The position numbers and the translations under genes are program-made. Shown piece after piece: positions 49,802-64,000 of a stretch of 64,000 nucleotides of DNA (the first letter of the stretch is position 1; each line of letters starts with the position of its first letter). The DNA comes from a virus (Duplodnaviria; Caudoviricetes): the IMG/VR virus record IMGVR_UViG_3300033069_001603, positions 1,003 to 65,002 of that record. One strand, 5' to 3'. A model generated the notes under the pieces. The model saw only the letters and a program-made list of their open reading frames with translations. It was not told the DNA's origin and searched no databases.

Positions 49802-49820
49802 TTGCCATAGGATAGCAAAA

Positions 49821-50370: not shown

Positions 50371-50656
50371 TAACTTAAAATCGCATCTTATTTTACTCGG
50401 TGTAAGTGCAGCCGAGATACAAAACAACTTCAGCTGTTTTTTAAGATTAGTTAATCTGTTAAAGAAGAAAAATATACAATACGATATATTAGAATACAAC
50501 AACGGATGGATTTGTGTACATTTCAACGGTCACTTATTATCAATGCACGACGGTATATATTTTGAAGTATCAGATTCTCTCCACCGAGGAGAGATTACAG
50601 AATTTAACGGCACATATACGCAACTTAAAAACATGTTGGATAAACTAAGTGATTGA
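50360..50656 (+). CDS. LKLK array protein
   Basis: SHLILLGV. Confidence 0.65.
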   Translation: MNNDNLKSHLILLGVSAAEIQNNFSCFLRLVNLLKKKNIQYDILEYNNGWICVHFNGHLLSMHDGIYFEVSDSLHRGEITEFNGTYTQLKNMLDKLSD

Positions 50657-50948
50657 ATTAATGTTACTTAAATTAAAATACCCTTTTTTAAACGATAGTA
50701 ATAAAGATATTATCGTACAAGTAATTACAGATCTAGGTGAACCCTTAGAGATAATATATTACCCGCATAGAAGAAATGATTTAGATTTCGTGTACGAATG
50801 GGGAACATTTCAAAGATACTTGAGCGAATTCAAAAGAAAAAACGATACACACGATAGTCATTATTATTCTTATCGTGGCGATCCCAGACTTTACCCGTAT
50901 AACTTAGCTATAACCGAAGGTTTTGAAAAATGTCAACTGCGAAGATGA
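50649..50948 (+). CDS. LKLK array protein
   Basis: ELMLLKLKYP...LGEP. Confidence 0.7.
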   Translation: MIELMLLKLKYPFLNDSNKDIIVQVITDLGEPLEIIYYPHRRNDLDFVYEWGTFQRYLSEFKRKNDTHDSHYYSYRGDPRLYPYNLAITEGFEKCQLRR

Positions 50949-51208
50949 TGTTTAAAGTTAAACATCCGACATTAACATCTGATGATATAGATGTTATATT
51001 TCAAGTATACGATTCTTTAGGCGACAATTGTATTATAGAAGTGCATAACCTTGCATGTATAATTAATTACGGTCCGTTTGCTTTAGTCTATAATCGAAAA
51101 ACAAAATACTACTATTCTAACATTCATTTTAAGTTGTCACTGGTGCTTTTAGATATTATAACAGAGTTAAAACCATATGTTGTCACCGACAAAAGAAATG
51201 TTACTTAA
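50930..51208 (+). CDS. LKLK array protein
   Basis: MSTAKMMFKVKHP. Confidence 0.7.
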   Translation: MSTAKMMFKVKHPTLTSDDIDVIFQVYDSLGDNCIIEVHNLACIINYGPFALVYNRKTKYYYSNIHFKLSLVLLDIITELKPYVVTDKRNVT

Positions 51209-51446
51209 AATTAAATATGGCGACATGCCTTACGGTGTGTATGATGACATATTGTATATTATAGAGGAACTGGGCGAACCAGATGACATAACATTTCAAG
51301 GAAATGACAAAATTAAATTTAAGATGCACTACGGCAAATATGCTATAGAAAGATATTATACGGGTTATAGTCATAGTCGAACCTTGAAGTTTATGAGTAT
51401 ATATGAAACAATTGAGGATTTTAAAATATGTCAACTTCAGCAATGA
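51177..51446 (+). CDS. LKLK array protein
   Basis: EMLLKIKYG...LGEP. Confidence 0.7.
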   Translation: MLSPTKEMLLKIKYGDMPYGVYDDILYIIEELGEPDDITFQGNDKIKFKMHYGKYAIERYYTGYSHSRTLKFMSIYETIEDFKICQLQQ

Positions 51447-51721
51447 TATTAAAAATAAAGTATCCTGCTTTTCCACCTATGTATTTTAGCGACTTAATTA
51501 AGATAGATGCTTTTGCAAATAAACATAACCTTAACATAGTCATTCAAACCGCCACGCGTGGATGGTCATATGTAGTTCATTTATATTACAGCAAACAGCA
51601 TAAGAATTATATTGCGCACGGAAAACAATCGAAAAATTATACTTGTCACGGCAATAACTTTTCGTATTCGCTCGAAGACATTCTAGCAGTGATAGAGAAA
51701 GATTTATGTCAACTAAATTAA
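51428..51721 (+). CDS. LKLK array protein
   Basis: MSTSAMILKIKYP. Confidence 0.7.
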   Translation: MSTSAMILKIKYPAFPPMYFSDLIKIDAFANKHNLNIVIQTATRGWSYVVHLYYSKQHKNYIAHGKQSKNYTCHGNNFSYSLEDILAVIEKDLCQLN

Positions 51722-51969
51722 TGATGCTTAAATTAAAATATCCTAATTTAAAAGAATGCAACTTTGATTTTGCATTAACTGTTATTGGGGAATTAGGCGA
51801 ACCTTTAAAAGTAACTGATGATCTTGACTGGTGTCGATTACATTACGGAAAAGGTACACAAATACAAAGATTCAACCTCGACGGAAGGTATAGTTACAGC
51901 AGTTCTACTAGGTTTTGCAACCTACAACAAGCAATAGACGTTTGTAAAGAAAAATTAGGTATAGTTTAA
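51706..51969 (+). CDS. LKLK array protein
   Basis: MSTKLMMLKLKYP...LGEP. Confidence 0.7.
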   Translation: MSTKLMMLKLKYPNLKECNFDFALTVIGELGEPLKVTDDLDWCRLHYGKGTQIQRFNLDGRYSYSSSTRFCNLQQAIDVCKEKLGIV

Positions 51970-52235
51970 TGTCAACTTACGCAATAGCAGCAAAGCTTAA
52001 ATATAAAGACCTACCAGAGAACGTTCTCGATAACGTTGGACGAATATTGTCTGCTGCTGGCGAACCCGTAGGGGTAGAATACGACTACCGCCACAAGACA
52101 TTTGATATGTTCTACAACGAAGATAGAACAAAATATATAATTGTATTTTTTTCGGGGCGGATAGCAATACGGAACCGAGAAATTACAGAAGATTTAAACG
52201 ACATAATAGATGTCATAAGGGGGTATCGTGAATAA
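51969..52235 (+). CDS. LKLK array protein
   Basis: MSTYAIAAKLKYK...AGEP. Confidence 0.7.
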   Translation: MSTYAIAAKLKYKDLPENVLDNVGRILSAAGEPVGVEYDYRHKTFDMFYNEDRTKYIIVFFSGRIAIRNREITEDLNDIIDVIRGYRE

Positions 52236-52530
52236 AACCGAAGAGATGGTATTAAAGATTAAATATCCAGATGTACCGCATTATTTTTTACGGGAATACG
52301 GTTTTCTCACCTCTGTATTCCCAAACAGCCGACACGACATAAGAGTTGAAGGAAAAAGTTTAAGTTTACATGTTTGCTTAGAAAATATGTGCATTGAAGT
52401 TACAATTAAACGCAACAATCTTTATACTAACTATATAACACACGATTACAGAAATGAATCGCACAGAACAATTGAGTTCTACCATTTTAAAGAACATTTA
52501 CTGGGCATTGTATGTCAACAGAATCAATGA
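52228..52530 (+). CDS. LKLK array protein
   Basis: EMVLKIKYP. Confidence 0.7.
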   Translation: MNKTEEMVLKIKYPDVPHYFLREYGFLTSVFPNSRHDIRVEGKSLSLHVCLENMCIEVTIKRNNLYTNYITHDYRNESHRTIEFYHFKEHLLGIVCQQNQ

Positions 52531-52787
52531 TATTAAAATTAAAGTATCCTATGATACCATCTTCTATATGTGATAATATATCCGTGTTATTTAATTCATT
52601 AGGGGAACCTAAAGAAATACACTACAATCGAAATGTAATACAGTTCTTTTACGGCGACAGGTTTGTTTTTGAATACTGGGTAATGCGGGAAGAATATTCA
52701 CACAATTTCATGCTCAAGTACGATGACTTTCATACCGTACTTGATAATTTTTGCAGATACACGGATATTAAATGTCAACCGAATTAA
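52512..52787 (+). CDS. LKLK array protein
   Basis: MSTESMILKLKYP...LGEP. Confidence 0.7.
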   Translation: MSTESMILKLKYPMIPSSICDNISVLFNSLGEPKEIHYNRNVIQFFYGDRFVFEYWVMREEYSHNFMLKYDDFHTVLDNFCRYTDIKCQPN

Positions 52788-53056
52788 TGTTACTTAAATT
52801 AAAATATCCCGTAAAGGATATATACATTGCTGACTTGCAATACATTATATCCGAGTTAGGTGAGCCAGAGATGTACTCGCAAACAAATGGCAGACTAATG
52901 TTAATATATAGTGTATATTTTGATATTAGGTTATACGATTTAACAAAAGGCAACCAATATAAATATACTGGTTGGGGTTGTACTTCTACTAATAACTTAG
53001 ACGATGTACTAAAGGTAATAAAGAAAAAATTATATGCCAGCAAAAATGGTATTTAA
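52772..53056 (+). CDS. LKLK array protein
   Basis: MSTELMLLKLKYP...LGEP. Confidence 0.7.
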   Translation: MSTELMLLKLKYPVKDIYIADLQYIISELGEPEMYSQTNGRLMLIYSVYFDIRLYDLTKGNQYKYTGWGCTSTNNLDDVLKVIKKKLYASKNGI

Positions 53057-53306
53057 AATTAAACATCCAACATTGACATCTGACGAGATAGATGTTATAT
53101 TTCAGGTATACAATATACTTGGAATTGGCACACTACATGTATCGGAAACAATGTACACAATAACATATAATAACATGTTTAGTTTTGTTTGCCATAGAAT
53201 TTTTAAAGAATACGCAAGTACAGAGGGCTCGGGTGTCACCGAAGACCCGCATGTTATAATTGAAGAGATCCTGCTATGTCAACAGAAACGATGCTACTTA
53301 AATTAA
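53034..53306 (+). CDS. LKLK array protein
   Basis: MVFKIKHPTLTSDEID. Confidence 0.7.
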   Translation: MPAKMVFKIKHPTLTSDEIDVIFQVYNILGIGTLHVSETMYTITYNNMFSFVCHRIFKEYASTEGSGVTEDPHVIIEEILLCQQKRCYLN

Positions 53307-53536
53307 AACGTCCCGATATTAAAGAATATGCATTGTCTCCGATTTCTGAGATGTTAAAGATACTTGACATTACCGAAGTTATAATAGACTCGAACAAAGC
53401 AAGGACACTGTTAATGTATAAGGGTACAACTTTTCAAATATTTCCAAACAAATCTTTTAGTTGGTATGGTTACCCTGATATAGTTTACAACATTAACCAG
53501 TTAATGCAGCTATGGCAAACATGTCAACTGAATTAA
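53276..53536 (+). CDS. LKLK array protein
   Basis: MSTETMLLKLKRP. Confidence 0.7.
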   Translation: MSTETMLLKLKRPDIKEYALSPISEMLKILDITEVIIDSNKARTLLMYKGTTFQIFPNKSFSWYGYPDIVYNINQLMQLWQTCQLN

Positions 53537-53799
53537 TGATGCTTAAATTAAAATACCCCGTCAGTGAAGTTTACTTAAAGAGCCTAGACTGTATTGTTAA
53601 TGCACTCGGCGAACCCGATATGTATATTGAATCAAAAAACAAACTTGTTATAAGGTACGGGCATAACGGAAGGTACTATGATATAAGAATATATTGCGAG
53701 TCTGACAATACTTTGACTTACATTTGTCACGGAGCACATTGTAGAAATTTAAATTTTGTCATACGTGCAATGACGGGGAATTTATGTCAACTGAATTAA
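53521..53799 (+). CDS. LKLK array protein
   Basis: MSTELMMLKLKYP...LGEP. Confidence 0.7.
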   Translation: MSTELMMLKLKYPVSEVYLKSLDCIVNALGEPDMYIESKNKLVIRYGHNGRYYDIRIYCESDNTLTYICHGAHCRNLNFVIRAMTGNLCQLN

Positions 53800-54089
53800 T
53801 GTTGCTTAAATTTAAATACTGCTTCTTATCGGAAGAAGAATTAATATTTGTACAAAAAGCCGTAAAGGATTTAAATTGTGGCGAATCATATAGGGTTGAA
53901 ATAAATCGAGAAGTAATAGAGATAATATATGAGAACATTGGATTTCAAAGATATAATTGCGGTGACGTTTACAAGTATTCGACTTGGTATAGTCCAATGC
54001 TTCTCAATTACGACGATGCAATAAATAAGTTCAAAGAATTGTATAAACGTGGTGGTGCACCAGAGGAAATAATATTCAATGAAGGCTGA
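53784..54089 (+). CDS. LKLK array protein
   Basis: MSTELMLLKFKY. Confidence 0.7.
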   Translation: MSTELMLLKFKYCFLSEEELIFVQKAVKDLNCGESYRVEINREVIEIIYENIGFQRYNCGDVYKYSTWYSPMLLNYDDAINKFKELYKRGGAPEEIIFNEG

Positions 54090-54357
54090 ATTAATGATAC
54101 TTAAATTAAAGCACCCGCAGCTTAATAAATATGAGATTAAGAGACTTTGGCTTATTTCTAAATTTACTACAATAAATCACATCGAAATAGACGAAGATTA
54201 CTGTGTCCTTGCACATTTAATCAATGACGATTATATTGATATTACATACGACCCAAGCGAAAAAACTATGGTCAGGTATATGATATTTTTTACCGGTAAA
54301 GGAATAAATAGAAAATCTAATCGTCTTAAAGACATATTAACTTTAATAAAACGGTGA
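54079..54357 (+). CDS. LKLK array protein
   Basis: ELMILKLKHP. Confidence 0.7.
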   Translation: MKAELMILKLKHPQLNKYEIKRLWLISKFTTINHIEIDEDYCVLAHLINDDYIDITYDPSEKTMVRYMIFFTGKGINRKSNRLKDILTLIKR

Positions 54358-54362
54358 CTTAT

Positions 54363-54686
54363 ATGTCAGCTGAATTAATGGTGCTTAAATTAAAGTATCC
54401 AGATGTGCCAGAATATGACTTACCTTTTGTGCTGCAGGTTATAAACGACTTAGGTGCGGGATTACCAGTTAAAATAAGAAGATATACTTCTAAGTGCGAT
54501 CTAGAAATTATTTATGATTTCGGAGGGTTCCAAAGATACACACATCGACCCGACGATAGGATTTATGCTGTTTGGTTTTCTAGTTATTATTGTACATATA
54601 ACGAAGCAATTAATATGTTTAAAAAATTACAAACAAATGTAGGTAGTGGCAGTTTACTAACTTATAAGAAATACAATGTCAACTAA
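54363..54686 (+). CDS. LKLK array protein
   Basis: MSAELMVLKLKYP. Confidence 0.7.
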   Translation: MSAELMVLKLKYPDVPEYDLPFVLQVINDLGAGLPVKIRRYTSKCDLEIIYDFGGFQRYTHRPDDRIYAVWFSSYYCTYNEAINMFKKLQTNVGSGSLLTYKKYNVN

Positions 54687-54942
54687 ATTAATGTTTGGTA
54701 AACTAAAGTACCCTCATATACCAGAGGATGCACTGTTGGAATTTATAGATATCGTCAGTGCTCTTGGCGAACCAATTGACGTTTTATACAGCGGTAAAAA
54801 TAACCGTTTAGTCTTACGATATGATACAATGGAAATTTGTATATTTGTAAAATGCCCGGTAATTTATAGTCGTTATTCGCTATCTGGGTACGGATTAATA
54901 GACAAATTAGAAGAGTTGATTAAACATGCAAAAAAATGTTAG
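54676..54942 (+). CDS. LKLK array protein
   Basis: MSTKLMFGKLKYP...LGEP. Confidence 0.7.
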   Translation: MSTKLMFGKLKYPHIPEDALLEFIDIVSALGEPIDVLYSGKNNRLVLRYDTMEICIFVKCPVIYSRYSLSGYGLIDKLEELIKHAKKC

Positions 54943-55231
54943 AACGATGATGCTCAGATTACAATACCCCGATGTTGTAATACCTAACGAATTACAAGAT
55001 GACCTAGAACGATTTTTAGAATGTTTCCCTCAGTTTAAAAGAGTTCTTAACAACTGGAGTTTTAGTATTTTCAAATCTAGAATATCTTTGTCTTACCCAA
55101 AATTTAAAATAGATATTAGAAGGGAAACCCACTATACAGTATTCACCGTATATAATTCCAAAGGTAACAGATACGAATTTAGAAGAAGAAACGCGGCAAT
55201 ACTGTTTATTAAAGAAACGGGACTGTATTAA
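54926..55231 (+). CDS. LKLK array protein
   Basis: MMLRLQYP. Confidence 0.65.
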   Translation: MQKNVRTMMLRLQYPDVVIPNELQDDLERFLECFPQFKRVLNNWSFSIFKSRISLSYPKFKIDIRRETHYTVFTVYNSKGNRYEFRRRNAAILFIKETGLY

Positions 55232-55233
55232 AG

Positions 55234-55262
55234 TTGACAAAGCGACTAACGTGTGCTAAACT
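55234..55262 (+). promoter_or_regulatory. sigma70 promoter
   Basis: TTGACA-17-TAAACT. Confidence 0.7.
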
Positions 55263-55294
55263 AACGCAAGTTTAATACATTTTAGGTTCAGATT

Positions 55295-55735
55295 ATGCAT
55301 CGGGAAACTACATTAAACGCCAGAACATATCACATTCATATGTTTCGTTATACTCACTTTAACGGTACGAAATGCTGGATTACTACAAACTATAAAAACC
55401 CACAATTCGAAACATACTACGAAATTCACCATGTTTTAAAACATACCTATTTAAAACACGAACTTACGGTTAATTCCAAACTTAAACATAAGACAACTCA
55501 AGCTATATTAAATGATTTAATTAAATACGTTGCACCAACGCATATTAAAAACATCCAGTATAATTATTACAAAATTGATATAACCCAGATAGAAACAGTA
55601 AATCACTTCGAAAATATGCTCCGCCGATATATAAATACCGACCCACTAGTACATGTGGGAAATTATATACATAAACGTGTATCCACTATACAACATTACA
55701 ATGGCATCATATTTAAAAACGGTGTAGTAGTATGA
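55295..55735 (+). CDS. Hypothetical His/Tyr-rich protein (no LKLK motif)
   Basis: 146 aa, first gene after promoter. Confidence 0.55.
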   Translation: MHRETTLNARTYHIHMFRYTHFNGTKCWITTNYKNPQFETYYEIHHVLKHTYLKHELTVNSKLKHKTTQAILNDLIKYVAPTHIKNIQYNYYKIDITQIETVNHFENMLRRYINTDPLVHVGNYIHKRVSTIQHYNGIIFKNGVVV

Positions 55736-55998
55736 CCGCCGCATCAATAATATATAAACTTAGGTACGGACACAACTACTTCGAAAAGTTCTACCCTGTG
55801 ATGGATATACTTGACAACCTTAACATTCCATACAGTATATCCCAAGGCGGTAACTATTTAATCTTAAATGGCATGACATTGGTTATGTCCGACGATCGCA
55901 AAGTAATCTTTGTTATGGATACTAAAAAACCATCTACACTTCTTACATTAGAAGAATTTAAAATATATATGGATAACCTATGCACAGCCAATACTTGA
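55732..55998 (+). CDS. LKLK array protein
   Basis: IIYKLRYG. Confidence 0.65.
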   Translation: MTAASIIYKLRYGHNYFEKFYPVMDILDNLNIPYSISQGGNYLILNGMTLVMSDDRKVIFVMDTKKPSTLLTLEEFKIYMDNLCTANT

Positions 55999-56276
55999 TG
56001 CTGTTTAAACTTAAATACAACTTGTCAGATGAAAAGGCAGCGTATTTCTACGATTTACTTATGCTGATATACGAACTCAATCTCGACTTTAAACCTGGAT
56101 CAATCAAAGAAAGCGATATACTGTCTGCTTGCTATATAGGCAACAAACATATACATATATATAAAGAAGGCAATTTCAAATACTCAGTTTATAAAAAATC
56201 AATTAGAATTGGATCAACATACACATTAGATGAACTTAGGATACTTTTAAATGAAACAATTACACATGTACTTTAA
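55980..56276 (+). CDS. LKLK array protein
   Basis: LMLFKLKYN. Confidence 0.65.
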   Translation: MHSQYLMLFKLKYNLSDEKAAYFYDLLMLIYELNLDFKPGSIKESDILSACYIGNKHIHIYKEGNFKYSVYKKSIRIGSTYTLDELRILLNETITHVL

Positions 56277-56571
56277 AATTAAGTACAATATCCGTTCACC
56301 CGAGTTAGAATTCTTTATGCCTGTGTTTATGGCATTCCACAACCTTAATAAACCGATAACTGTGTATCCAACATCATCGTCTGATTCAAATTACTGTATA
56401 TTATTTAAAAAAGACAACTACGAATTGTACATTACGAATAAGGACAACGTCCTTAATTTACAATCATCGTCACCTATGTACCTCGTGTCAGAATACAATA
56501 GTACAGATTTAATAAACGGAAAGATCCACCATATGAATATACAGGACTTACTATGCAAAATAACGAACTGA
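56251..56571 (+). CDS. LKLK array protein
   Basis: MYFKIKYN. Confidence 0.65.
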   Translation: MKQLHMYFKIKYNIRSPELEFFMPVFMAFHNLNKPITVYPTSSSDSNYCILFKKDNYELYITNKDNVLNLQSSSPMYLVSEYNSTDLINGKIHHMNIQDLLCKITN

Positions 56572-56819
56572 TATTCTACATACTTAAATACAACGCAAAA
56601 GAAGAAATGATAATCCAATTATACGACGCGATTAAACTCTTCGAACGGAATGATATCATCTTTACCCTCCACACAAATAATGCAAGACTGAGTAATAAAC
56701 ATTATATAAGGTACAACAACACACATATATACAATGAACACACAAAGTATGCACTGTATAAAGATCAAATGATATGGCGGACCGCCACACTAGAAGAACT
56801 AATAAAGGTATTAACATGA
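56553..56819 (+). CDS. LKLK array protein
   Basis: LIFYILKYN. Confidence 0.65.
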   Translation: MQNNELIFYILKYNAKEEMIIQLYDAIKLFERNDIIFTLHTNNARLSNKHYIRYNNTHIYNEHTKYALYKDQMIWRTATLEELIKVLT

Positions 56820-57127
56820 ATAATCAACTGATATTCTACAAACTTAAATACGGTGCAGTCCCAACTAAAACCATAAGGAAATATATTATATGGCTTGATA
56901 TCCTCAACGAATATAACTTCCCCGCGACTTTTACAATTAGTCCCCCATCACCAGAATACTACTTAAAATATGTATCAAAAAATCTTGTTATGTTTATAAT
57001 TTATAATAGCTGCAATCGAGTTAATGTTGGAATATACAGTAATACATCTACATCGCGACACTTTACATTAGACGAAACTAGATTTAAACTATTACTTAAG
57101 AAAATAAAAGATGAATACAAATCTTAA
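56816..57127 (+). CDS. LKLK array protein
   Basis: LIFYKLKYG; start moved to ATG 56816. Confidence 0.65.
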   Translation: MNNQLIFYKLKYGAVPTKTIRKYIIWLDILNEYNFPATFTISPPSPEYYLKYVSKNLVMFIIYNSCNRVNVGIYSNTSTSRHFTLDETRFKLLLKKIKDEYKS

Positions 57128-57333
57128 AGCACATCTTATGCTACTTGGTATAAGCAAAGAAGAAATGAAAATAACTTTAATACAGATAAATTACTTAAAA
57201 CAAAGAAATATACAAACAACAGTGGATCGTAATAGAATTTAACTTACAACACGACAACAAATACTTCGAAATCGAACAATCCGTACATAAATGCAAACCC
57301 TCAGAATTACTTGGCTACTTAGAAGATATTTGA
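57111..57333 (+). pseudogene. Frameshifted paralog of ORF 50360
   Basis: MNTNLKAHLMLLG..., TAA at 57240; next frame NLQHDNKYFEIEQSVHK matches SMHDGIYFEVSDSLHR. Confidence 0.65.
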
Positions 57334-57550
57334 AACAACTGGTATACTATAAACTTAAATATATCACAAATCAATATTGATAACTATACTCGACTCCATT
57401 AATGATACTTTTACAATACATACTAACAGACAAAGGGATCAAACTTATATTAGAACTAATATTTACAAAGACCTTGTACATAGTAAGATGTATATATTAT
57501 TATATAGAGGCAATATTAGATATGATTACATTATGGCTGCTAATGAATAA
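57330..57550 (+). pseudogene. Frameshifted LKLK array gene
   Basis: TTG start LKQLVYYKLKY, then ~60 open codons in another frame. Confidence 0.55.
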
Positions 57551-58080
57551 TAATCATCTATATTAAGGTATATACATATAACAGTGTAAACGTATACTGA
57601 TTATGTACGAAACGGTGTTGTGTAGAGTACGTTAAAAAGCTGACTCTATTAGCGGGTAAAATTGACATTATTAGACATTATTAGAACGTAGGGTAGTAGC
57701 AAAAAACATATGGTAATGGTGTTATAATATACCAACTTCTAAACAATAACCGTAAGAAATCAACACCTTAGTAAGAAGATGTAAAAATTCACCGTAATCA
57801 AACGGTATATTTAAAAAACCTACCATATAAAAGGTAGTCTAAACCATTGTATAACAATATTCTGTAATACCATTTCTTTTAATATTTCAAAACCGTATCA
57901 ATTATAGGAGATACTCATCTTTATGTAAAAGGGTATGATCAACAGCAGTGCCTTCACCTTCAACAATTGTTCTTAAAGTTTAACCCCGATCCCGTAGGGA
58001 GGTATTATAAAAGTAACAATCTATTAGTATTCAGTGTAATCAAAGAGTCTAGCATACAAATTATAGACTTTCATTCTAAC
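57470..58080. other. Putative replication origin or genome-end junction (GC-skew switch, ORF-free)
   Basis: C>G to the left, G>C to the right with genes on the same strand; 10-bp tandem repeat, ACCGT motifs, hairpin. Confidence 0.55.
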
Positions 58081-58081
58081 C

Positions 58082-58110
58082 TTGACATAGTGTATAAAAT
58101 ATGTTAAAGT
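58082..58110 (+). promoter_or_regulatory. sigma70 promoter
   Basis: TTGACA-17-TAAAGT. Confidence 0.7.
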
Positions 58111-58158
58111 AGTTGTATTACATGTTTATTTATCATTTTTATTTCAAATGGATTAATT

Positions 58159-58443
58159 ATGTCCGTAGAAGTTAATAAAATGCTGTTACGTATTAAGTAT
58201 CCAACTTTTCCAGTTGAGTATTTAGATGATATGTATCAAGTTGAGCGTATAGGTGGAGTAATCGCTGCGGAATATTCGCCGTGGTATGCTAGTTATTATA
58301 TATTTCAATTCACATATAACAGTCAGAAATATAAGATAGAGAGGAATTGTGATTTTTTAAAATTAATTATTATGTCGCGGAATATGATATTATTTCGTTC
58401 GATTGAAGAATTAATAGGTGTGTTATGTCAACTTCGGCAATGA
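58159..58443 (+). CDS. LKLK array protein
   Basis: KMLLRIKYP. Confidence 0.7.
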   Translation: MSVEVNKMLLRIKYPTFPVEYLDDMYQVERIGGVIAAEYSPWYASYYIFQFTYNSQKYKIERNCDFLKLIIMSRNMILFRSIEELIGVLCQLRQ

Positions 58444-58694
58444 TGTTCAAGCTTAAATATAATTGTGTTTTAGTTAATAGTTACCTCGACGATATTAATT
58501 ATATAATTAAAAAATTAGGTGAGCCTGTACAAATAAATTACTCTAATAGTATATATTTAATGCGTTATAATAGTTCGGATTCTGTTAGTATAAGGTATAT
58601 AAGAATATTCGATCTTAAAAAATACATATTAAGATATGATTCTACGTATTGTGCTTTAACAAATGACATCGACCGTGCAATAAGGGGTGTGTAG
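58425..58694 (+). CDS. LKLK array protein
   Basis: MSTSAMMFKLKYN...LGEP. Confidence 0.7.
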   Translation: MSTSAMMFKLKYNCVLVNSYLDDINYIIKKLGEPVQINYSNSIYLMRYNSSDSVSIRYIRIFDLKKYILRYDSTYCALTNDIDRAIRGV

Positions 58695-58958
58695 ATGTCA
58701 ACTGAAGCGATGATATTAAAGATTAAGTACAATATATTAGAGTGGGCAATCAATGATGTTAATCGAATCATATCAAACTTAGGCGAACCTATTAGTATTG
58801 TATATAATAACAATTATTATACTTTGCATTATCTAGAAGGGTATATTATGTTATTTGATTTTAAATTTGGTTATGGCTTAAGATATTCTGGTCATGCCGA
58901 TGAATTAACTGATGATTTGCTTTCGATAATAGGTAGAATATGTCGACTTCGGAAATGA
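58695..58958 (+). CDS. LKLK array protein
   Basis: MSTEAMILKIKYN...LGEP. Confidence 0.7.
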   Translation: MSTEAMILKIKYNILEWAINDVNRIISNLGEPISIVYNNNYYTLHYLEGYIMLFDFKFGYGLRYSGHADELTDDLLSIIGRICRLRK

Positions 58959-59191
58959 TGTTGAAGATTAAGTATGGGATATCGCCGTGGGCATCGGCTG
59001 AGTCCATCCGTATTTTATCTGCATTAGGCGAACCTATTAGTGTTGAATGTCGAGAAAATAACTATATTTTATATTATCTAGAAGGGTATATTAGGATCTT
59101 TAATACTGAATTTAGCTATAAGTTAAGATATTCTAGTTATAATGCTGGTTTAACAGGTGACTTAGATGAAGTATTGAGGAAATTTAGATGA
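58940..59191 (+). CDS. LKLK array protein
   Basis: MSTSEMMLKIKYG...LGEP. Confidence 0.7.
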   Translation: MSTSEMMLKIKYGISPWASAESIRILSALGEPISVECRENNYILYYLEGYIRIFNTEFSYKLRYSSYNAGLTGDLDEVLRKFR

Positions 59192-59478
59192 CAGTTGATT
59201 CGATGATATTAAAAATAAAGTATCCCGATGTGCCGGATCATATTGTAGATATAATTGAGCATATTAAATCTATATCAGTATACGAATGGGAATATCGGAA
59301 GAGTAAGGTATATGAAGATGTGTATTCTTTGTGGCACGATGATTTCTATATTAGGATATTTGATGATCCTGTTATTGTATACGATAGTTGCATTGATGCT
59401 GAAGAAAACGATTTAGATTATGTTTTAAGTAATGCAGAGATGCATATTGGAAGTAGAAAATGTCAACTTCGGCAATAG
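59188..59478 (+). CDS. LKLK array protein
   Basis: SMILKIKYP. Confidence 0.7.
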   Translation: MTVDSMILKIKYPDVPDHIVDIIEHIKSISVYEWEYRKSKVYEDVYSLWHDDFYIRIFDDPVIVYDSCIDAEENDLDYVLSNAEMHIGSRKCQLRQ

Positions 59479-59711
59479 TAAGTAAGTTAAAATACGGGGT
59501 AGTTATACCCGATCAATTTATACCTGATGCTGAGAAGATTATATCTGAATTGGGTAGGTATAGTAGTATAAAAGTGGACAGTGAAGGTGTAGTTATGTAT
59601 TACGGTTGGAGTAATATTATCATATTATATAAAGGTAGATATTCAACGCCTTATTGTGGGTCAGTATATAGTTTAGATGTTGCAATAGATTCGATGCGTG
59701 GGAGGATATAA
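59460..59711 (+). CDS. LKLK array protein
   Basis: MSTSAIVSKLKYG. Confidence 0.7.
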   Translation: MSTSAIVSKLKYGVVIPDQFIPDAEKIISELGRYSSIKVDSEGVVMYYGWSNIIILYKGRYSTPYCGSVYSLDVAIDSMRGRI

Positions 59712-60011
59712 GTGTCAACTGAAGCGATGATGTTGAAGATGAAGTATCCGATATTTTCTAATAATGTATTAGGTAATATGGTTATTTTATTTCGTGAAGT
59801 AGGTGAACCAGATAACATCATGTATAATGATCATTCTGAAAGGTTCCAATATGTTAGTATCTGGTACGGTTCGATAGTATTTCAATATAGGGAAGACAAT
59901 AGGTATAACGACGATGATATGATATATACGCACTCTGGGTTAGGTGAGTATTGTTATTTTTGGGATGCGTTAGAATCGTTTAAGGAGTTAAGATGTCAAC
60001 TGAAGCAATGA
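59712..60011 (+). CDS. LKLK array protein
   Basis: GTG start, STEAMMLKMKYP...VGEP. Confidence 0.7.
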   Translation: MSTEAMMLKMKYPIFSNNVLGNMVILFREVGEPDNIMYNDHSERFQYVSIWYGSIVFQYREDNRYNDDDMIYTHSGLGEYCYFWDALESFKELRCQLKQ

Positions 60012-60268
60012 TATTAAAGATGAGATATGGTTGTGAGTTTGATGACATATCAAGGGCAATAGATGCTATCGGCCAATATCCTGAGAAGATAACAAAAGAT
60101 GAGTATCATTGTAAGATATCAATGTTTTACAATAAAGACATTGTGTTTCAAATATTTTATAGAAAAGCAAGAACCAAAAACGGATATAGTTATTACGGTG
60201 GAGGTATGTGTTCTTTTAATAAAGCCGTAAGTAGAATAAGAGAGAAATTATGTCAACTTCAAAAATGA
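59993..60268 (+). CDS. LKLK array protein
   Basis: MSTEAMILKMRYG. Confidence 0.7.
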   Translation: MSTEAMILKMRYGCEFDDISRAIDAIGQYPEKITKDEYHCKISMFYNKDIVFQIFYRKARTKNGYSYYGGGMCSFNKAVSRIREKLCQLQK

Positions 60269-60519
60269 TACTCAAACTTAAATACAATGTGTCGGATGAT
60301 TTATTACATTCGTTAATACGCATTATAGATGCGTTAGGTGAGCCTATTAGTGTTGAGTTTCCTATGAGCGACATAATGTATGTGTATTACAGTGAGGGCA
60401 TACGTATAGAGAGATATAACAATGCCAATTCATACTCGATTAAAAGTTACAGTGGCTTTATGTGTTTTGATGATGCCGTACGTGAGATAAAAGGGCAATT
60501 ATGTCGACCTCAAAATTAG
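60250..60519 (+). CDS. LKLK array protein
   Basis: MSTSKMILKLKYN...LGEP. Confidence 0.7.
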   Translation: MSTSKMILKLKYNVSDDLLHSLIRIIDALGEPISVEFPMSDIMYVYYSEGIRIERYNNANSYSIKSYSGFMCFDDAVREIKGQLCRPQN

Positions 60520-60761
60520 TATTTCGATTAAAATACAGTGATATACCTTTGCGATATGTTGACGATGCATATGTTTTTGTGTGTGAGTTAGGCAATCCCC
60601 TTAGGTATATAGTTGATTTAAATGGATATGGCGGTGTAATATTATATTACAATAAGGACAGTGTAGTGCTTTACGCATTGGGTAGATATATTAATCATTA
60701 TTGCGCTTATAAATATGACGGTGGCGATATTAGTATGGCAATTGAGTCTCTAAGAGATTAA
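60501..60761 (+). CDS. LKLK array protein
   Basis: MSTSKLVFRLKYS...LGNP. Confidence 0.7.
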   Translation: MSTSKLVFRLKYSDIPLRYVDDAYVFVCELGNPLRYIVDLNGYGGVILYYNKDSVVLYALGRYINHYCAYKYDGGDISMAIESLRD

Positions 60762-60766
60762 TAATC

Positions 60767-61054
60767 ATGTCAACTATAGAATTAGTATTTAAGTTAAGAT
60801 ATGGTGTTGATATCCCTAGTTGGTGTATAGATGATGTTAATTTTGCAATATTATCACTTGGGTATCCTGACAAGATCACGTATTATAAGGGAGTCTCTGC
60901 TTTAGTTGACTCTAGTTTGTATATGTATTATGACATGTATACTGTATTACAGTTATATGAAAATAAGGCGTACAGTTGTTTTGCTAAAGGTTATATGCGT
61001 ACATTAGACGAAGCAATAAGTCGTATAAAGGAACAGTTATGTCAACAGAATTAA
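60767..61054 (+). CDS. LKLK array protein
   Basis: MSTIELVFKLRYG...LGYP. Confidence 0.7.
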   Translation: MSTIELVFKLRYGVDIPSWCIDDVNFAILSLGYPDKITYYKGVSALVDSSLYMYYDMYTVLQLYENKAYSCFAKGYMRTLDEAISRIKEQLCQQN

Positions 61055-61299
61055 TGCTATTAAAATTAAAGTGTCCTATGATACCACCCGAAGATCATAG
61101 TAATATGTTAATTTTATTTCGTGAAGTAGGTGAGCCGGATTATGCTGATGCCGATGGTTATGTATTATTGTTGCATTACGGTAAACATCTGTTTGAGTGT
61201 TACGGTAGTCATAGACGATATTCAACTAATGAATCGGAATATTATATGGAATTTAAAGATGCGTTAGCATTATTTAAAAAGTCGTTAGGAAGAAAATAA
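61039..61299 (+). CDS. LKLK array protein
   Basis: MSTELMLLKLKCP...VGEP. Confidence 0.7.
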   Translation: MSTELMLLKLKCPMIPPEDHSNMLILFREVGEPDYADADGYVLLLHYGKHLFECYGSHRRYSTNESEYYMEFKDALALFKKSLGRK

Positions 61300-61610
61300 T
61301 GTTAAAATATATACGTAACAAAGCAATGATGTTAAAGTTAACGTATCCAGGATTAGAATTCCGAGAGGAAGCGCGACGAGCCGCAATAGTATCTATGTTT
61401 TTCACTATAGAAGATATCAAAGACGGTGCAATCGTAGACATTGGCGGCGATTACAGTATAGACATAGGGATAGTTAAAGGTTATTCAATTTTAGATGATG
61501 CCCACAATTATCCTTATGTTTTATATTATATGGACGAGGATATAGCAATGTCTTATAGTATAAAAGATATGATAGAAGCATATGAGATACATGCCCCGGA
61601 TGATATATGA
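61299..61610 (+). CDS. LKLK array protein
   Basis: AMMLKLTYP. Confidence 0.7.
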   Translation: MLKYIRNKAMMLKLTYPGLEFREEARRAAIVSMFFTIEDIKDGAIVDIGGDYSIDIGIVKGYSILDDAHNYPYVLYYMDEDIAMSYSIKDMIEAYEIHAPDDI

Positions 61611-61894
61611 TAACATTAAGAGAAGTATCTCAACGTGCAATGTGTTATAAATTGCAATATGGTCTATGTTACCATGAATCTAGGCGATTAGCTTTAATAT
61701 CGATGTTCTTCAGTATAAAAGCAGTAAAGCGTAATTTAGCAATAGTAGGGGATCATGAGATTGATTTTTGTTATGTTGGCGGCAATAATATAATGGGTGT
61801 GGCTTTAGAGCCATATTATTTATATCGGAGCGGCGAAGACGAAGTTATACTAACAACGTATCGATTAAAGGATATAGCATGTCATCTGAATTAA
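61607..61894 (+). CDS. LKLK array protein
   Basis: AMCYKLQYG; paralog of 61299. Confidence 0.7.
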   Translation: MITLREVSQRAMCYKLQYGLCYHESRRLALISMFFSIKAVKRNLAIVGDHEIDFCYVGGNNIMGVALEPYYLYRSGEDEVILTTYRLKDIACHLN

Positions 61895-62166
61895 TGTTAC
61901 TTAAAATTAAATACGGGGATATTCCGTCTTGGATTGCATTTGACCTTGAAAAAATAAAATCAGTATTAGGCGAAGATTGCGTATTAACAGCAATTGGCAA
62001 AAACTACTATACTTTAATTTATGACGAATTATATATTACAATCTACGATGTGATTAATTTTGGTTATGCATACAAATACACAAGTACGGGTATCGGTTTA
62101 ACAGATGACTTAGATAGAGTCATAGCAACTGTAAAGAAGCTTATGTTATGTCATCCGCAGCAATGA
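61879..62166 (+). CDS. LKLK array protein
   Basis: MSSELMLLKIKYG. Confidence 0.7.
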   Translation: MSSELMLLKIKYGDIPSWIAFDLEKIKSVLGEDCVLTAIGKNYYTLIYDELYITIYDVINFGYAYKYTSTGIGLTDDLDRVIATVKKLMLCHPQQ

Positions 62167-62447
62167 TATTAAAGTTAAAGTATCCTTATTTTCCAGCTAA
62201 GTATCTTAGCGATTTTACAAAAATATCAGATGCATTTAGTTGCGGTAACGGTTACACTGTTGAGCCAAAACTAAAAACTTTATTTTGGGCATACGTAGTC
62301 GAAATAAAGTACAACGACAAATACGTTGACTATATTGCATTGTATCAAAGCGTGGAAAAGTATACAGTCCAAGGTAATAATTACTTTAACGACCTTGACT
62401 CGGCAATTAACTTTTTATTGGTTAAAACATGTCAACTTCAAAAATGA
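62148..62447 (+). CDS. LKLK array protein
   Basis: MSSAAMILKLKYP; paralog of 51428. Confidence 0.7.
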   Translation: MSSAAMILKLKYPYFPAKYLSDFTKISDAFSCGNGYTVEPKLKTLFWAYVVEIKYNDKYVDYIALYQSVEKYTVQGNNYFNDLDSAINFLLVKTCQLQK

Positions 62448-62740
62448 TGTTTAAAATTAAGTACCCTGATTTTCCAGAAGATGTCATCGATGATTGTGTA
62501 TATGCAATATCGATCTTAGGAGAACCGCATAGTGTATATATATTGAAAGAGTGGTATGGATTACATTACGGAAAAGCGAATTATTTTGCAATAACACTTG
62601 ATATTTTTGGTCATAGAAGTTACACGGGTTTAAATCTAAGTTATTATACAAAAATCGAAGAAGTAGTTCATTTAATAAAAAGAGGTATTGAAGGTGACAA
62701 TACAACATATGGTAGCAAAGATTCGGGGAGTCCCCGTTAA
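62429..62740 (+). CDS. LKLK array protein
   Basis: MSTSKMMFKIKYP...LGEP. Confidence 0.7.
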   Translation: MSTSKMMFKIKYPDFPEDVIDDCVYAISILGEPHSVYILKEWYGLHYGKANYFAITLDIFGHRSYTGLNLSYYTKIEEVVHLIKRGIEGDNTTYGSKDSGSPR

Positions 62741-62957
62741 CTTATTAAATGATTATAATGAGATTACTGCTAAGATAAACCAGCCATATGATCTTTATAT
62801 ATTTAAAAGGGAACAAGTGAGATTAGAATATAAAAATTTCACTATTTGTATACTGCCCGATAACCGTTATGCATTTAAATATGATACTGCAACCGACAGA
62901 CAACATTTATATCCAAAGTATAAAAGCGAATTGTATTTTTTAGCAAAAGTAACTTGA
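62688..62957 (+). CDS. LKLK array protein (divergent)
   Basis: HMVAKIRG. Confidence 0.55.
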   Translation: MKVTIQHMVAKIRGVPVNLLNDYNEITAKINQPYDLYIFKREQVRLEYKNFTICILPDNRYAFKYDTATDRQHLYPKYKSELYFLAKVT

Positions 62958-63626: not shown

Positions 63627-63677
63627 TGAATATTCCCAACATTAGAATGTAATGTTTTAGTGTTGGGAAGTTATTAT

Positions 63678-63714
63678 GGTCCTTTAGCTCAGCAGGATAG
63701 AGCAGTCGACTCAT
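63678..63714 (+). tRNA. tRNA-Ile2/Met(CAT), 5' exon
   Basis: GGTCCTTTAGCTCAGCAGGATAGAGCAGTCGACTCAT resembles ileX; 3' exon beyond window. Confidence 0.8.
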
Positions 63715-64000
63715 GAATTTTGTGACCTTCAATAGTAATATTGATTGAATAACCGGATTAATTTAGTGAAACCTCTGTTACATTTGTAACGTGGCAATAC
63801 TAAGCCAAGCCTATTATGCGTAATAGGAAGGTTCAGAGACTAGGTGGTTTGGCACGAACATGCCATATAATACACCGTTAACGTCCGGCGCGGATGCTTG
63901 GCGAGAGGATGGCTAGTTGCCGTATAACCGTAGCTGTAAACGGTTGCGAAGCAATCCGACGAACGAAGTGAGTGTATTTAACAGCGTTGTTATACGCTAA
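63715..64000 (+). ncRNA. Group I intron in tRNA(CAT), truncated by window end
   Basis: P1 TCAT/GTGA with U.G, P2 GTAA loop, P3 CCGGAT/GTCCGG, AATACTAAGCCAAG, GTTCAGAGACTA. Confidence 0.85.

What the first reader, a model, noticed from the sequence alone, without database searches (positions are those of the whole stretch)
55295..61900. Sharp local GC-skew inversion at ~57.5 kb marks a probable origin or genome end inside the array
Seen, hand counts on the plus strand: 55381-55440 C14/G3 and 57241-57300 C17/G5, versus 58921-58980 C4/G16 and 59581-59640 C2/G15. Genes on both sides are the same family on the same strand, so coding bias cannot explain it, and the skew appears to fade a few kb away. 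The ORF-free 57550-58080 segment has a 10-bp tandem repeat (GACATTATTA x2, 57664), five ACCGT/ACGGT motifs (57612, 57749, 57791, 57802, 57892) and a hairpin CTACC-8-GGTAG (57820). Known: C-to-G-rich switches mark bidirectional origins. Inference: an origin with prolonged local single-strandedness, or the joint of the two physical ends; either would raise mutation and recombination in the array around it.
Basis: partly seen in the sequence, partly recalled or inferred. Interest (0 to 1): 0.75.

Follow-up and report, generated by a model that had tools for sequence, protein, structure and literature searches.

The report
Local strand-bias flip in phage array
In an uncultured large freshwater phage, one 3.8-kb operon of small repeated early genes is strongly depleted of C and enriched in G and T on its coding strand, starting at its promoter; the flip is real but lopsided, and it is not shown to be a replication origin.

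Summary
All four hand counts and every motif coordinate are exact. GC skew is -0.21 over 55295-57473, about 0 over 57474-58099, and +0.31 over 58100-61900. No other 3.8-kb window in the 64 kb exceeds +0.11. At least seven independent assemblies, all over 99.5% identical, bridge the junction, so it is not a chimera.

The two sides are not mirror images. On the right, 14 genes show a mutation-type signature that is strongest at silent sites. Synonymous C/(C+T) is 0.19 against 0.35 in the neighbouring baseline genes (0.30-0.41 across all other gene groups). Synonymous G/(G+A) is 0.36 against 0.25. The shift occurs in every neighbouring-base context and begins within about 50 bp of a sigma-70-type promoter (58082-58110).

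On the left, six genes are G-poor mainly at codon positions 1 and 2, which reflects amino-acid composition. Their silent sites barely differ from baseline.

The gap holds two decayed family copies, minus-strand terminators and promoter-like sites. It has no iterons, DnaA boxes or known RNA. Skew returns to baseline within 4 kb and stays there for 10 kb further right.

Best reading: the plus (non-template) strand is chronically exposed as single-stranded DNA downstream of that promoter, through transcription or R-loops that may also prime replication as in T4. A classical origin, a genome end, imported modules and selection against C all remain possible. The scan has noted similar flips in other large phages.

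The parts
55234..55262 (+). Promoter-like site TTGACA-17-TAAACT (TG before the -10) at the left border of the G-poor block
   Evidence: It belongs to the same class (TTGACA, 16-18 nt, TAnnnT) as more than 20 sites in intergenic gaps of the window. The cumulative G-C maximum is at 55304.
55295..57127 (+). LEFT block: six family genes (146, 88, 98, 106, 88 and 117 aa) with gene-wide GC skew -0.11 to -0.26
   Evidence: G is 0.18, 0.086 and 0.118 at codon positions 1, 2 and 3. Four-fold-site GC skew is -0.11, against -0.10 in the 46.3-50.6 kb sub-group. Synonymous C/(C+T) is 0.430+-0.030 and G/(G+A) 0.209+-0.028. There are fewer G, D, E, V and C residues and more H, T, N and Y. These genes are each other's best, though weak, paralogs.
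57111..57550 (+). Two decayed family copies. The first is a 43-aa truncated ORF (57111-57242). The second is split between the N-terminal motif QLVYYKLKY (about 57336-57380) and its body in another frame (57377-57550).
   Evidence: ORF 57111 matches the first 40 residues of the gene at 50360 (44% identity, E 2.5e-9 against the small family database). ORF 57291 matches the gene at 56774 (E 9e-5). ORF 57377 matches the gene at 56553 (43% over 47 residues, E 5.8e-6). A profile HMM of the whole family gave no significant hit here. The cumulative skew minimum (57473) lies inside this stretch.
57551..58081 (.). Non-coding spacer with GC skew about 0. It holds a 10-bp tandem repeat (57664-57685), a minus-strand promoter-like site (57929-57901), two minus-strand terminator-like hairpins (57837-57820 and 57807-57790), and a weak stem-loop AGTCTA-12-TAGACT (58046-58069).
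   Evidence: No Rfam match. No DnaA box. DNA fold z = +0.95. The minus-strand RNA 57895-57775 folds with z = -1.3. ACCGT occurs 5 times in 285 bp, where the window-wide rate predicts about 0.5.
58082..58158 (+). Promoter-like site TTGACA-17-TAAAGT (58082-58110, TG before the -10) followed by an AT-rich leader; the positive skew starts here
   Evidence: Cumulative G-C is flat up to 58100 and then rises.
58159..61894 (+). RIGHT block: 14 family genes (83-103 aa) with gene-wide GC skew +0.19 to +0.44, C 9.5-14% and G 17-25%
   Evidence: Synonymous C/(C+T) is 0.187+-0.017 against 0.353+-0.019 in the neighbouring baseline genes. G/(G+A) is 0.356+-0.024 against 0.250+-0.019. Four-fold sites: C 0.09, G 0.198, T 0.40, A 0.31. 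The C loss appears after every 5' and 3' neighbouring base. The shift is larger at silent than at replacement positions. Nearest paralogs lie both inside and outside the block.
61879..62957 (+). Four further family genes with near-baseline composition (GC skew 0.00 to 0.24): the right border of the strong skew
   Evidence: A weak plus-strand terminator-like hairpin lies at 61796-61817.

Best explanation
The flip is the meeting point of two different things.

(1) The right block (58.1-61.9 kb) is one early-type operon. Its coding, non-template, plus strand has lost C to T and A to G, most strongly at silent codon positions and in every sequence context. The loss begins at the operon's sigma-70-type promoter. 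This is the footprint expected when that strand is single-stranded far more often than its complement, so that cytosine and adenine deaminate there. The most likely cause is heavy early transcription with R-loop formation from the promoter at 58082. By analogy with T4 origins, such an R-loop could also prime rightward leading-strand synthesis and leave the plus strand displaced for a few kb. I give that sub-case about one quarter of the total probability.

(2) The left block (55.3-57.5 kb) is C-over-G mainly because its six divergent proteins, and the two decayed copies that follow them, use few G-rich codons. Its silent sites are almost ordinary.

Shown here: the composition statistics, the coincidence of the borders with promoter-like sites, and the continuity of the locus across assemblies. 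Inferred: single-strandedness, R-loops and any link to replication.
For: - Silent-site transition ratios set RIGHT apart from every other gene group in the window. RIGHT has C/(C+T) 0.187 and G/(G+A) 0.356. Array baselines have 0.353-0.408 and 0.250. Other plus-strand genes have 0.335 and 0.223. Minus-strand genes, read on their own coding strand, have 0.295 and 0.190.
- Purine content at four-fold sites is unchanged (0.508 against 0.517), so transitions account for the shift.
- The shift is larger at silent than at replacement positions in RIGHT and the reverse in LEFT.
- There is no deaminase-like context preference.
- Paralogs are at most 52% identical, and RIGHT genes' nearest relatives lie both inside and outside the block. 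The bias therefore goes with position and not with descent.
- The onset at 58100 coincides with the promoter-like site 58082-58110, and the LEFT onset at 55304 coincides with the site 55234-55262.
- The bias weakens with distance to the right (Spearman rho -0.51, p 0.02 over 20 genes) and is at baseline in the next 10 kb.
- Established knowledge: G+T excess on the non-template strand, and on the lagging-strand template, is attributed to deamination of single-stranded DNA (PMC10030826). T4 origins are a promoter plus an AT-rich unwinding element whose R-loop leaves the non-template strand single-stranded and primes synthesis in one direction first (PMC3016281). Positive GC skew downstream of promoters goes with R-loops (PMC3787257).
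Against: - More than 20 promoter-like sites of the same class occur in the window, including ones that head other parts of the same array (49773, 53073, 55234). None of their units shows this bias. Something specific to this unit is needed and has not been identified.
- No expression data exist: no RNA run holds the stretch.
- Weak selection against each C on the coding strand would also shift silent sites more than replacement sites.
- The gradient is not significant within the 14 genes themselves.
- Strain polymorphisms show no C/T against G/A asymmetry: 6 against 6 in 58-60 kb.
- The promoter, terminators and AT-rich leader are consensus matches only.
Confidence: 0.45

Rival explanations
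1. A classical fixed bidirectional replication origin lies in the 57.5-58.1 kb spacer. Forks leave in both directions, and the lagging-strand template on each side accumulates deamination.
For: - The polarity is right (C>G on the left, G>C and T>A on the right) and there is a local minimum of cumulative skew at 57473.
- The locus holds a roughly 1-kb stretch with no intact gene (two decayed copies plus about 530 bp of spacer), AT-rich and with promoter-like sites on both strands.
- LEFT silent sites lean weakly the mirror way: +0.02 to +0.06 in C/(C+T), -0.04 in G/(G+A), each with z below 2. A weak trend with distance exists (p 0.07).
- In a phage that replicates mostly by recombination, only the origin-proximal few kb would be copied in a fixed direction.
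Against: - The left effect at silent sites is a quarter to a third of the right effect and not significant. The left skew is mostly amino-acid composition.
- No iterons, DnaA boxes, unusual fold or known RNA.
- The borders are step-like and sit at promoter-like sites.
- There is no replichore-like asymmetry between plus- and minus-strand genes of the window.
- The window-scale skew minimum and the divergence of gene orientation are at about 29 kb.
- No replication gene lies next to the spacer.
Confidence: 0.15
2. The spacer is, or adjoins, the physical left end of the genome and the start of a long direct terminal repeat of early genes, as in PA5oct-like jumbo phages. End-specific processing, such as strand displacement when the repeat is duplicated, or being the first DNA to enter and be transcribed, exposes the plus strand.
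For: - Contig k-mer depth steps up about two-fold to the right of about 57.25 kb in three runs from three studies: X1 6.1-6.9 to 13.4-13.9, X11 7.9 to 15.9, X5 about 4 to about 7.
- X11's contig crosses the step without a branch, as expected for a collapsed repeat.
- PA5oct, the best named match of the window's rIIA (25% identity), has a 39-kb terminal repeat of 105 small, mostly early genes. That repeat was found by double coverage (PMC7318152).
Against: - Only contigs, not reads, could be laid, so no termini are visible.
- X1 also has contigs with a different left context joining at 56991 and 57157. This fits a second genotype better than a terminal repeat.
- The doubled-depth stretch (to at least 63.9 kb) is longer than the skewed block.
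- The start of PA5oct's repeat shows no such skew; its maximum is +0.18.
- 5'-resection of ends predicts the opposite polarity.
Confidence: 0.1
3. The blocks are modules exchanged between related phages at promoter and stem-loop borders, as with the PeSL-type modular shuffling of T4-type phages. Each brought a composition acquired elsewhere, so the flip is only a seam between modules.
For: - Both outer and inner borders are sharp and sit at early-type promoter-like sites, with a weak stem-loop just upstream of the one at 58082.
- The array is recombinationally active. SNPs come in tight patches (54165-54200, 58273-58321, 59704-59810), and one strain lacks 61033-61557.
- The depth step near 57.25 kb and the alternative left context in X1.
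- PeSL cassettes are known to mediate such shuffling (PMC2839356).
Against: - G+C content is the same in RIGHT and in the baseline array (0.320 against 0.326).
- The family is essentially confined to this phage: 33 hits among 1.84 billion representatives, 32 of them from this window. No donor is in sight.
- This reading only moves the question of how the skew arose to another genome.
Confidence: 0.12
4. Selection, not mutation, removes C from the coding strand of this early operon. This would be a graded form of the 'cytosine-free early gene cassettes' that this scan has noted in T4-like and giant phages, with a G-poor unit just upstream.
For: - Earlier scan notes (leads only) describe small early genes with no C on the coding strand, following the direction of transcription. 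One of them describes a G-depleted gene directly upstream of such a cassette.
- Here the promoter and leader are also C-poor: 4 C in 77 nt, by reading.
- Weak per-site selection would shift silent sites more than replacement sites, as observed.
Against: - C is evenly about 10-11% in every gene of the block. The longest C-free run is 51 nt, below the random expectation of 57, so this is not a C-less cassette.
- A ban on C does not predict the parallel A>G shift at silent purine sites.
- No genes for guanine or cytosine modification were seen in the 65 kb available.
Confidence: 0.12
5. Assembly chimera of two strains or two genomes joined at the spacer.
For: None beyond the sharpness of the switch.
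Against: Collinear contigs that are 99.5-99.9% identical to the window cross 57.1-58.2 kb in SRR32380203, SRR32380198, SRR8942298, SRR31616059 (the last from 57596), JGI 3300033066 and JGI 3300020577, in addition to the window's own contig.
Confidence: 0.01

Closest known systems
Transcription-associated strand asymmetry (G+T excess on the non-template strand; GC skew downstream of promoters linked to R-loops)
   Same: The affected strand is the non-template strand. The bias starts at a promoter-like site. It consists of C>T and A>G transitions and is strongest at silent sites (PMC10030826, PMC3787257).
   Different: Here it is confined to one of many operons that have the same promoter type. 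It is very strong: four-fold-site GC skew is +0.37 against about 0. Expression has not been measured.
[quoted passage not shown]
   Same: A T4-like gene set (rIIA, ligase, RNase T-type exonuclease, intron-bearing tRNA). A promoter-like site followed by an AT-rich leader. A lopsided effect that is strong downstream and weak upstream. A recombination-active neighbourhood (PMC3016281).
   Different: The T4 elements are about 100 bp and are defined by plasmid replication assays. No kb-scale skew is described for them, and T4 oriA and oriC lie outside skew shifts. Nothing here was tested functionally.
Skew switch at bidirectional origins (Lobry-type; used for bacteria and huge phages)
   Same: A C-rich to G-rich switch on one strand and a local minimum of cumulative skew (PMC3269016).
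   Different: This one is local (2.2 kb plus 3.8 kb) and not replichore-wide. It is not mirror-symmetric at silent sites. No origin hardware is present.
PeSL regulatory cassettes and hyperplastic regions of T4-type phages (Arbiol et al. 2010, PMC2839356)
   Same: [quoted passage not shown] Recombination and deletion occur between units.
   Different: PeSLs explain module borders, not base composition. The stem-loop upstream of the 58082 promoter is weak.
Long direct terminal repeats of early genes in jumbo phages (PA5oct, 39 kb; PMC7318152)
   Same: A region of many roughly 90-aa plus-strand early-type genes. About double depth to the right of the spacer.
   Different: The start of PA5oct's repeat has no strong skew. 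No read-level termini are available here.

Membership tests
Bidirectional replication origin marked by a skew switch | Switch from C>G to G>C (and A>T to T>A) on one strand at the origin | tested here: met
   GC skew goes from -0.206 to +0.311 and AT skew from +0.183 to -0.010. The cumulative minimum is at 57473.
Bidirectional replication origin marked by a skew switch | Mirror-image mutational bias at silent sites on the two sides | tested here: not met
   RIGHT differs from baseline by -0.17 and +0.11, with z of about 6.5 and 3.5. LEFT differs by +0.02 to +0.06 and -0.04, with z below 2. The LEFT skew sits at codon positions 1 and 2.
Bidirectional replication origin marked by a skew switch | Skew persists along each replication arm | tested here: not met
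   The skew returns to baseline at 55.3 kb and at about 61.9 kb. The 10 kb beyond the window are at baseline. Plus- and minus-strand genes show no replichore-type difference.
Bidirectional replication origin marked by a skew switch | Origin hardware: iterons, initiator boxes, an adjacent initiator or replication gene | tested here: not met
   No DnaA box in the gap. No repeat family beyond a 2.2-copy 10-mer. The neighbouring genes are the small paralogs.
Bidirectional replication origin marked by a skew switch | Replication actually starts there (nascent strands, copy-number peak, autonomous replication) | not testable with these tools
   Only contig mean depths were available. They show a step, not a peak.
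T4-type R-loop origin | Promoter followed by an A+T-rich unwinding element | tested here: inconclusive
   TTGACA-17-TAAAGT at 58082-58110 is followed by a roughly 50-nt leader of about 20% G+C. These are consensus and composition matches only, and such arrangements are common in this window.
T4-type R-loop origin | Persistent R-loop with single-stranded non-template strand; phage-dependent plasmid replication | not testable with these tools
   Inferred only, from the silent-site C>T and A>G bias on the non-template strand.
Transcription-associated strand asymmetry | G+T excess on the non-template strand, starting at the transcription start | tested here: met
   Onset at 58100, next to the promoter-like site. 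Four-fold sites have G 0.198, T 0.40, C 0.09, A 0.31.
Transcription-associated strand asymmetry | Strength scales with expression; comparable promoters give comparable bias | tested here: not met
   Units behind same-class promoter-like sites at 49773, 53073 and 55234 lack the bias. Expression itself was not measurable, as no RNA run holds the stretch.
Direct terminal repeat boundary | Two-fold read depth over the repeat and read termini at its borders | tested here: inconclusive
   Contig k-mer depth is about doubled to the right of about 57.25 kb in X1, X11 and X5. Termini cannot be seen in contigs, and X1 shows an alternative left context.
Cytosine-free early gene cassettes (earlier notes of this scan) | Coding strand, spacers included, with no or almost no C | tested here: not met
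   C is 9.5-14% in every gene. The longest C-free run is 51 nt, against 57 expected by chance.
PeSL-type module | Strong sigma-70-like promoter plus a terminator stem-loop at the module borders | tested here: inconclusive
   Promoter-like sites lie at both borders. Only a weak 6-bp stem (58046-58069) precedes the 58082 site, by reading. Clear terminator-plus-promoter pairs exist elsewhere in the window, at 30110 and 33319.

The most novel reading that the evidence does not exclude
The promoter at 58082 anchors a strand-specific deamination zone. This would be a programmed or tolerated local mutator, working through persistent R-loops or a recruited deaminase. It would keep the first ~4 kb of a fast-evolving early paralog array under elevated C>T and A>G mutation on the displaced strand. 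That would be a phage counterpart of transcription-targeted hypermutation, serving to diversify genes that are probably aimed at host defences.
Probability: 0.08. Interest if true: 0.85.

Novelty: new variant of a known kind. Interest (0 to 1): 0.42.

Why it matters
Strand skew is widely used to call origins in phage and metagenome-assembled genomes. This case shows that a sharp, origin-polarity flip between co-oriented genes can be composite. One arm is a genuine silent-site mutational or selective footprint tied to a single promoter-bounded operon. The other arm is mostly protein composition.

If the right-hand footprint does reflect chronic single-strandedness, through an R-loop or R-loop-primed replication, it would give a sequence-only marker for such sites in uncultured T4-like phages. 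It would also be a local source of elevated mutation in an array of about 56 orphan early genes. The scan has noted comparable kb-scale flips, and C-avoiding early genes, in other large freshwater phages, so the phenomenon may be general and is worth one experimental test.

Tried and rejected
- **Relatives for a comparative test.** No near DNA match among 50,697 phage records. Protein-pattern scans of viral contigs with the 146-aa gene and with the ligase found nothing, and neither did an exact 24-mer from the gap. The 146-aa gene has no homologue among 5.8 billion clusters. A family profile against 1.84 billion representatives returned 33 hits, 32 of them from this window. The one outsider (P0021) sits on 0.5-kb contigs. 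Two exact-pattern scans of JGI metagenome contigs found nothing. No test of conservation in diverged relatives was therefore possible.
- **Family annotation.** PHROGs gave no family for seven of the small proteins.
- **Origin hardware.** Rfam, DnaA boxes, repeats and DNA or RNA folding all turned up nothing remarkable.
- **Strain SNPs.** They are too few and come in patches, so they say nothing about the current mutation spectrum. Donors for the SNP patches were not found in the window.
- **Loose-end sequences of other contigs.** None occurs in the 65-kb contig, so they are not deletion joints within it. The 35-nt matches at 61894-61928 look like another paralog elsewhere.
- **Depth evidence.** It comes from contig means only. 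Run X7 was too thin to judge.
- **Terminal-repeat model spanning 55.3-61.9 kb.** In this model single-strand annealing would give negative skew on the left and positive on the right. It was rejected because the depth step is at 57.25 kb, not 55.3 kb.
- **C-less cassette reading.** Rejected for lack of long C-free runs.
- **Profile HMM of the whole family.** It did not detect the decayed copies. Pairwise BLASTP did.
- **Whole-genome cumulative skew.** Impossible, because the genome held is this single 65,002-base contig.

Full report
**Source of the window.** The window is 64,000 of the 65,002 bases of a single metagenomic contig. It belongs to an undescribed large phage. The contig encodes an rIIA-like protein whose best named matches, at about 25% identity, are PA5oct-type Pseudomonas jumbo phages. 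It also encodes an ATP-dependent DNA ligase, two TnpB-type elements, AAA ATPases, a Sir2 protein and an RNase T-type exonuclease. One standard tRNA is present, together with a group I intron at 63647-63893. No near DNA match exists among 50,697 phage records. The same sequence, at over 99.5% identity, occurs in river, wastewater and freshwater metagenomes from seven studies.

**The gene array.** From 46.3 to 63.0 kb the plus strand carries about 56 tandem, overlapping genes of about 90 codons. They belong to one family with the consensus MSTxxMxLKLKY...LGEP. A profile search of 1.84 billion representative proteins found the family almost nowhere else: 33 hits, 32 of them from this window.

**Check of the observation.**
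- Cumulative G-C peaks at 55304, falls to a minimum at 57473, stays flat to 58100, climbs steeply to about 61900, then levels off.
- GC skew is -0.206 in LEFT (55295-57473), +0.033 in the middle and +0.311 in RIGHT (58100-61900). The rest of the array has +0.077.
- Other windows of the same size reach at most +0.111 and at least -0.183.
- AT skew moves the opposite way, from +0.18 to -0.01.
- The 10 kb beyond the window, read from a JGI contig (L015), are at baseline.

The feature is therefore real, local and far outside the window's own variation.

**Chimera test.** Collinear contigs cross 57.1-58.2 kb in four Logan assemblies and two JGI assemblies, in addition to the window's own contig. 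The 'would refute' condition of an assembly chimera is excluded.

**Anatomy of the two sides.** I split the genes into five groups: baseline A (46.3-50.6 kb), baseline B (50.6-55.2 kb), LEFT, RIGHT and baseline C (61.9-63.0 kb). I then measured composition by codon position and the two silent-site transition ratios.

| Group | Synonymous C/(C+T) | Synonymous G/(G+A) |
|---|---|---|
| Baseline A | 0.408+-0.020 | 0.251+-0.020 |
| Baseline B | 0.353+-0.019 | 0.250+-0.019 |
| Other plus-strand genes | 0.335 | 0.223 |
| Minus-strand genes (own strand) | 0.295 | 0.190 |
| LEFT | 0.430+-0.030 | 0.209+-0.028 |
| RIGHT | 0.187+-0.017 | 0.356+-0.024 |

*RIGHT.* It differs from baseline B by about 6.5 and 3.5 standard errors. 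It is unlike any other gene group in the window. Purine content at four-fold sites is unchanged, so the shift consists of C>T and A>G transitions on the plus strand. The shift is larger at silent than at replacement positions. The C loss occurs after every neighbouring base, so there is no deaminase-type context.

*LEFT.* It is not significantly different from its neighbours at silent sites. Its four-fold-site GC skew (-0.11) equals that of baseline A (-0.10). Its negative skew comes from codon positions 1 and 2: G is 0.18 and 0.086, against 0.26 and 0.14 in baseline. This reflects proteins poor in G, D, E, V and C and rich in H, T, N and Y.

The flip is therefore composite. The argument that 'coding bias cannot explain it' fails for the left arm.

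**Descent or position.** Family members are at most 52% identical in protein, so silent sites are saturated between copies. RIGHT genes have their nearest paralogs both inside the block and in the baseline parts, for example 59712 with 52512 and 58695 with 61879. The six LEFT genes are weakly each other's closest relatives. The RIGHT bias therefore goes with position. The LEFT composition may go with lineage.

**Borders and the gap.**
- The window has a recurrent class of promoter-like sites (TTGACA, 16-18 nt with TG, TAnnnT) in its few intergenic gaps. They are often preceded by terminators.
- One such site lies at 55234-55262, where LEFT begins. Another lies at 58082-58110, where RIGHT begins. 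The second is followed by an AT-rich leader.
- Between the blocks lie two decayed family copies. One is a 43-codon truncation that resembles the start of the gene at 50360. The other is split between frames and resembles the genes at 56774 and 56553.
- A 530-bp spacer follows the decayed copies.
These lie downstream of a minus-strand promoter-like site at 57929-57901. A short antisense RNA may be made there, but its fold is unremarkable and Rfam has nothing.
- There are no DnaA boxes, no iterons and no unusual DNA fold.
- ACCGT is locally enriched, 5 in 285 bp where about 0.5 is expected. After allowing for scanning the whole window this is marginal.

**Mechanisms weighed.** The polarity excludes a terminus and also excludes 5'-resection at a break or at free ends. 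Both would put the G-rich arm on the left.

The C>T plus A>G pattern on one strand is the accepted footprint of single-stranded exposure. It is seen on lagging-strand templates and on non-template strands (PMC10030826). Positive GC skew just downstream of promoters accompanies R-loops (PMC3787257).

T4 origins are a promoter plus an AT-rich unwinding element. Their R-loop exposes the non-template strand and primes synthesis in one direction first (PMC3016281). A T4-like R-loop site at 58082 would therefore explain four things: the onset at the promoter, the affected strand, the strong-right and weak-left asymmetry, and the confinement to a few kb in a phage that otherwise replicates by recombination.

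Against a purely transcriptional cause, other units of the same array with the same promoter type lack the bias. Against a classical bidirectional origin stand the missing mirror signature, the step-like borders, the absence of origin hardware, and the window-scale skew minimum at about 29 kb, where gene orientation diverges.

**The genome-end idea.** Logan contig depths roughly double to the right of about 57.25 kb in three runs from three studies. PA5oct has a 39-kb terminal repeat of small early genes that was detected in just that way (PMC7318152).

Several points weigh against it. One run shows an alternative left context. The doubled stretch is longer than the skewed block. The start of PA5oct's repeat has no comparable skew. 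I leave the depth step as an unexplained observation.

**Modules and selection.** PeSL-type shuffling (PMC2839356) fits the sharp, promoter-aligned borders. It also fits the evident recombination: SNP patches, and a 525-bp paralog deletion in one strain. It does not explain where the composition came from. G+C content is identical inside and outside the block.

Earlier notes of this scan describe early genes with no C on the coding strand in T4-like phages, a G-poor gene upstream of one such cassette, and a mirror flip in a 372-kb freshwater phage. I treated these as leads. Here C is evenly about 10-11%, with no long C-free run, so the block is not a C-less cassette. Weak selection against C cannot be separated from mutation bias with these data. 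It does not, however, predict the A>G shift.

**Verdict.** The origin reading is only partly supported.

The best-supported account is a composite flip. One promoter-bounded early operon carries a strong footprint of the single-stranded-DNA type on its non-template strand (confidence about 0.45, with an R-loop-primed origin as a sub-case). It abuts a G-poor, partly decaying group of paralogs whose skew is protein-level.

Ranked after it are a classical origin (0.15), module import (0.12), selection against C (0.12) and a genome end (0.10). An assembly chimera (0.01) is already refuted. Deciding among the live readings needs read-level termini, a complete genome, and transcription, R-loop and nascent-strand mapping.

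Noticed in passing
window 63647-63893 (tRNA-like 5' exon from about 63678): Group I intron (Rfam RF00028, 52.8 bits, E 1e-12) inside a tRNA(CAU)-like gene that ARAGORN does not call. Contigs from several assemblies stop at 63409 or 63909, and a 47x-depth contig matches 63915-64000. This conserved element probably breaks the assemblies.
   Followed up: partly
window about 57.25 kb to at least 63.9 kb: Contig k-mer depth is about twice that of 45-57.2 kb in three runs from three studies (6.9 to 13.9, 7.9 to 15.9, about 4 to about 7). In one run, contigs with a different left context join at 56991 and 57157. This could be a terminal repeat, a second genotype sharing the right part, or a second copy in the genome. 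It is unresolved.
   Followed up: partly
window 57111-57550: Two decayed copies of the array family, one truncated and one split by a frame change, sit exactly where the cumulative skew reaches its minimum.
   Followed up: yes
window 57929-57790, minus strand: A promoter-like site (TTTACA-17-TATAAT) is followed by two tandem terminator-like hairpins. This could be an unannotated antisense RNA of about 90-110 nt. There is no Rfam match, and the fold is not better than shuffles. One strain (L007) has four SNPs at 57857-57888, inside it.
   Followed up: partly
L016 against window 61033-61557: One strain (SRR31616073) lacks about 525 bp, which fuses two paralogs into a 102-codon hybrid. This is copy-number change by recombination between array members.
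   Followed up: partly
window 54165-54200, 58273-58321, 59704-59810: Strain differences come in tight patches (5-10 SNPs in 36-107 bp, including transversions), as after short imports of diverged DNA. No donor was found within the window. The window and the JGI strain L003 differ by 1.4% in 58.2-59.9 kb. They do not differ at all in the next 3.5 kb and differ by 0.19% to the left.
   Followed up: partly
window 46328-62957: The family of about 56 small proteins is practically an orphan. A profile search of 1.84 billion representative proteins found 33 members, 32 encoded here. There is no PHROG or Pfam family for them.
   Followed up: yes
window about 29.1-30.1 kb: The window-scale minimum of cumulative GC skew coincides with divergent promoter-like sites (29142 on the minus strand, 30110 on the plus strand) and with the switch from minus- to plus-strand genes. 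However, silent-site ratios of the two gene sets are alike on their own coding strands, so this looks like a coding-strand effect and not a replichore effect.
   Followed up: partly
L021 (PA5oct, MK797984.1) 408-3255: The 39-kb terminal repeat of PA5oct starts with an array of about 85-105-codon plus-strand genes. This architecture resembles the window's array, but no sequence similarity was tested.
   Followed up: no
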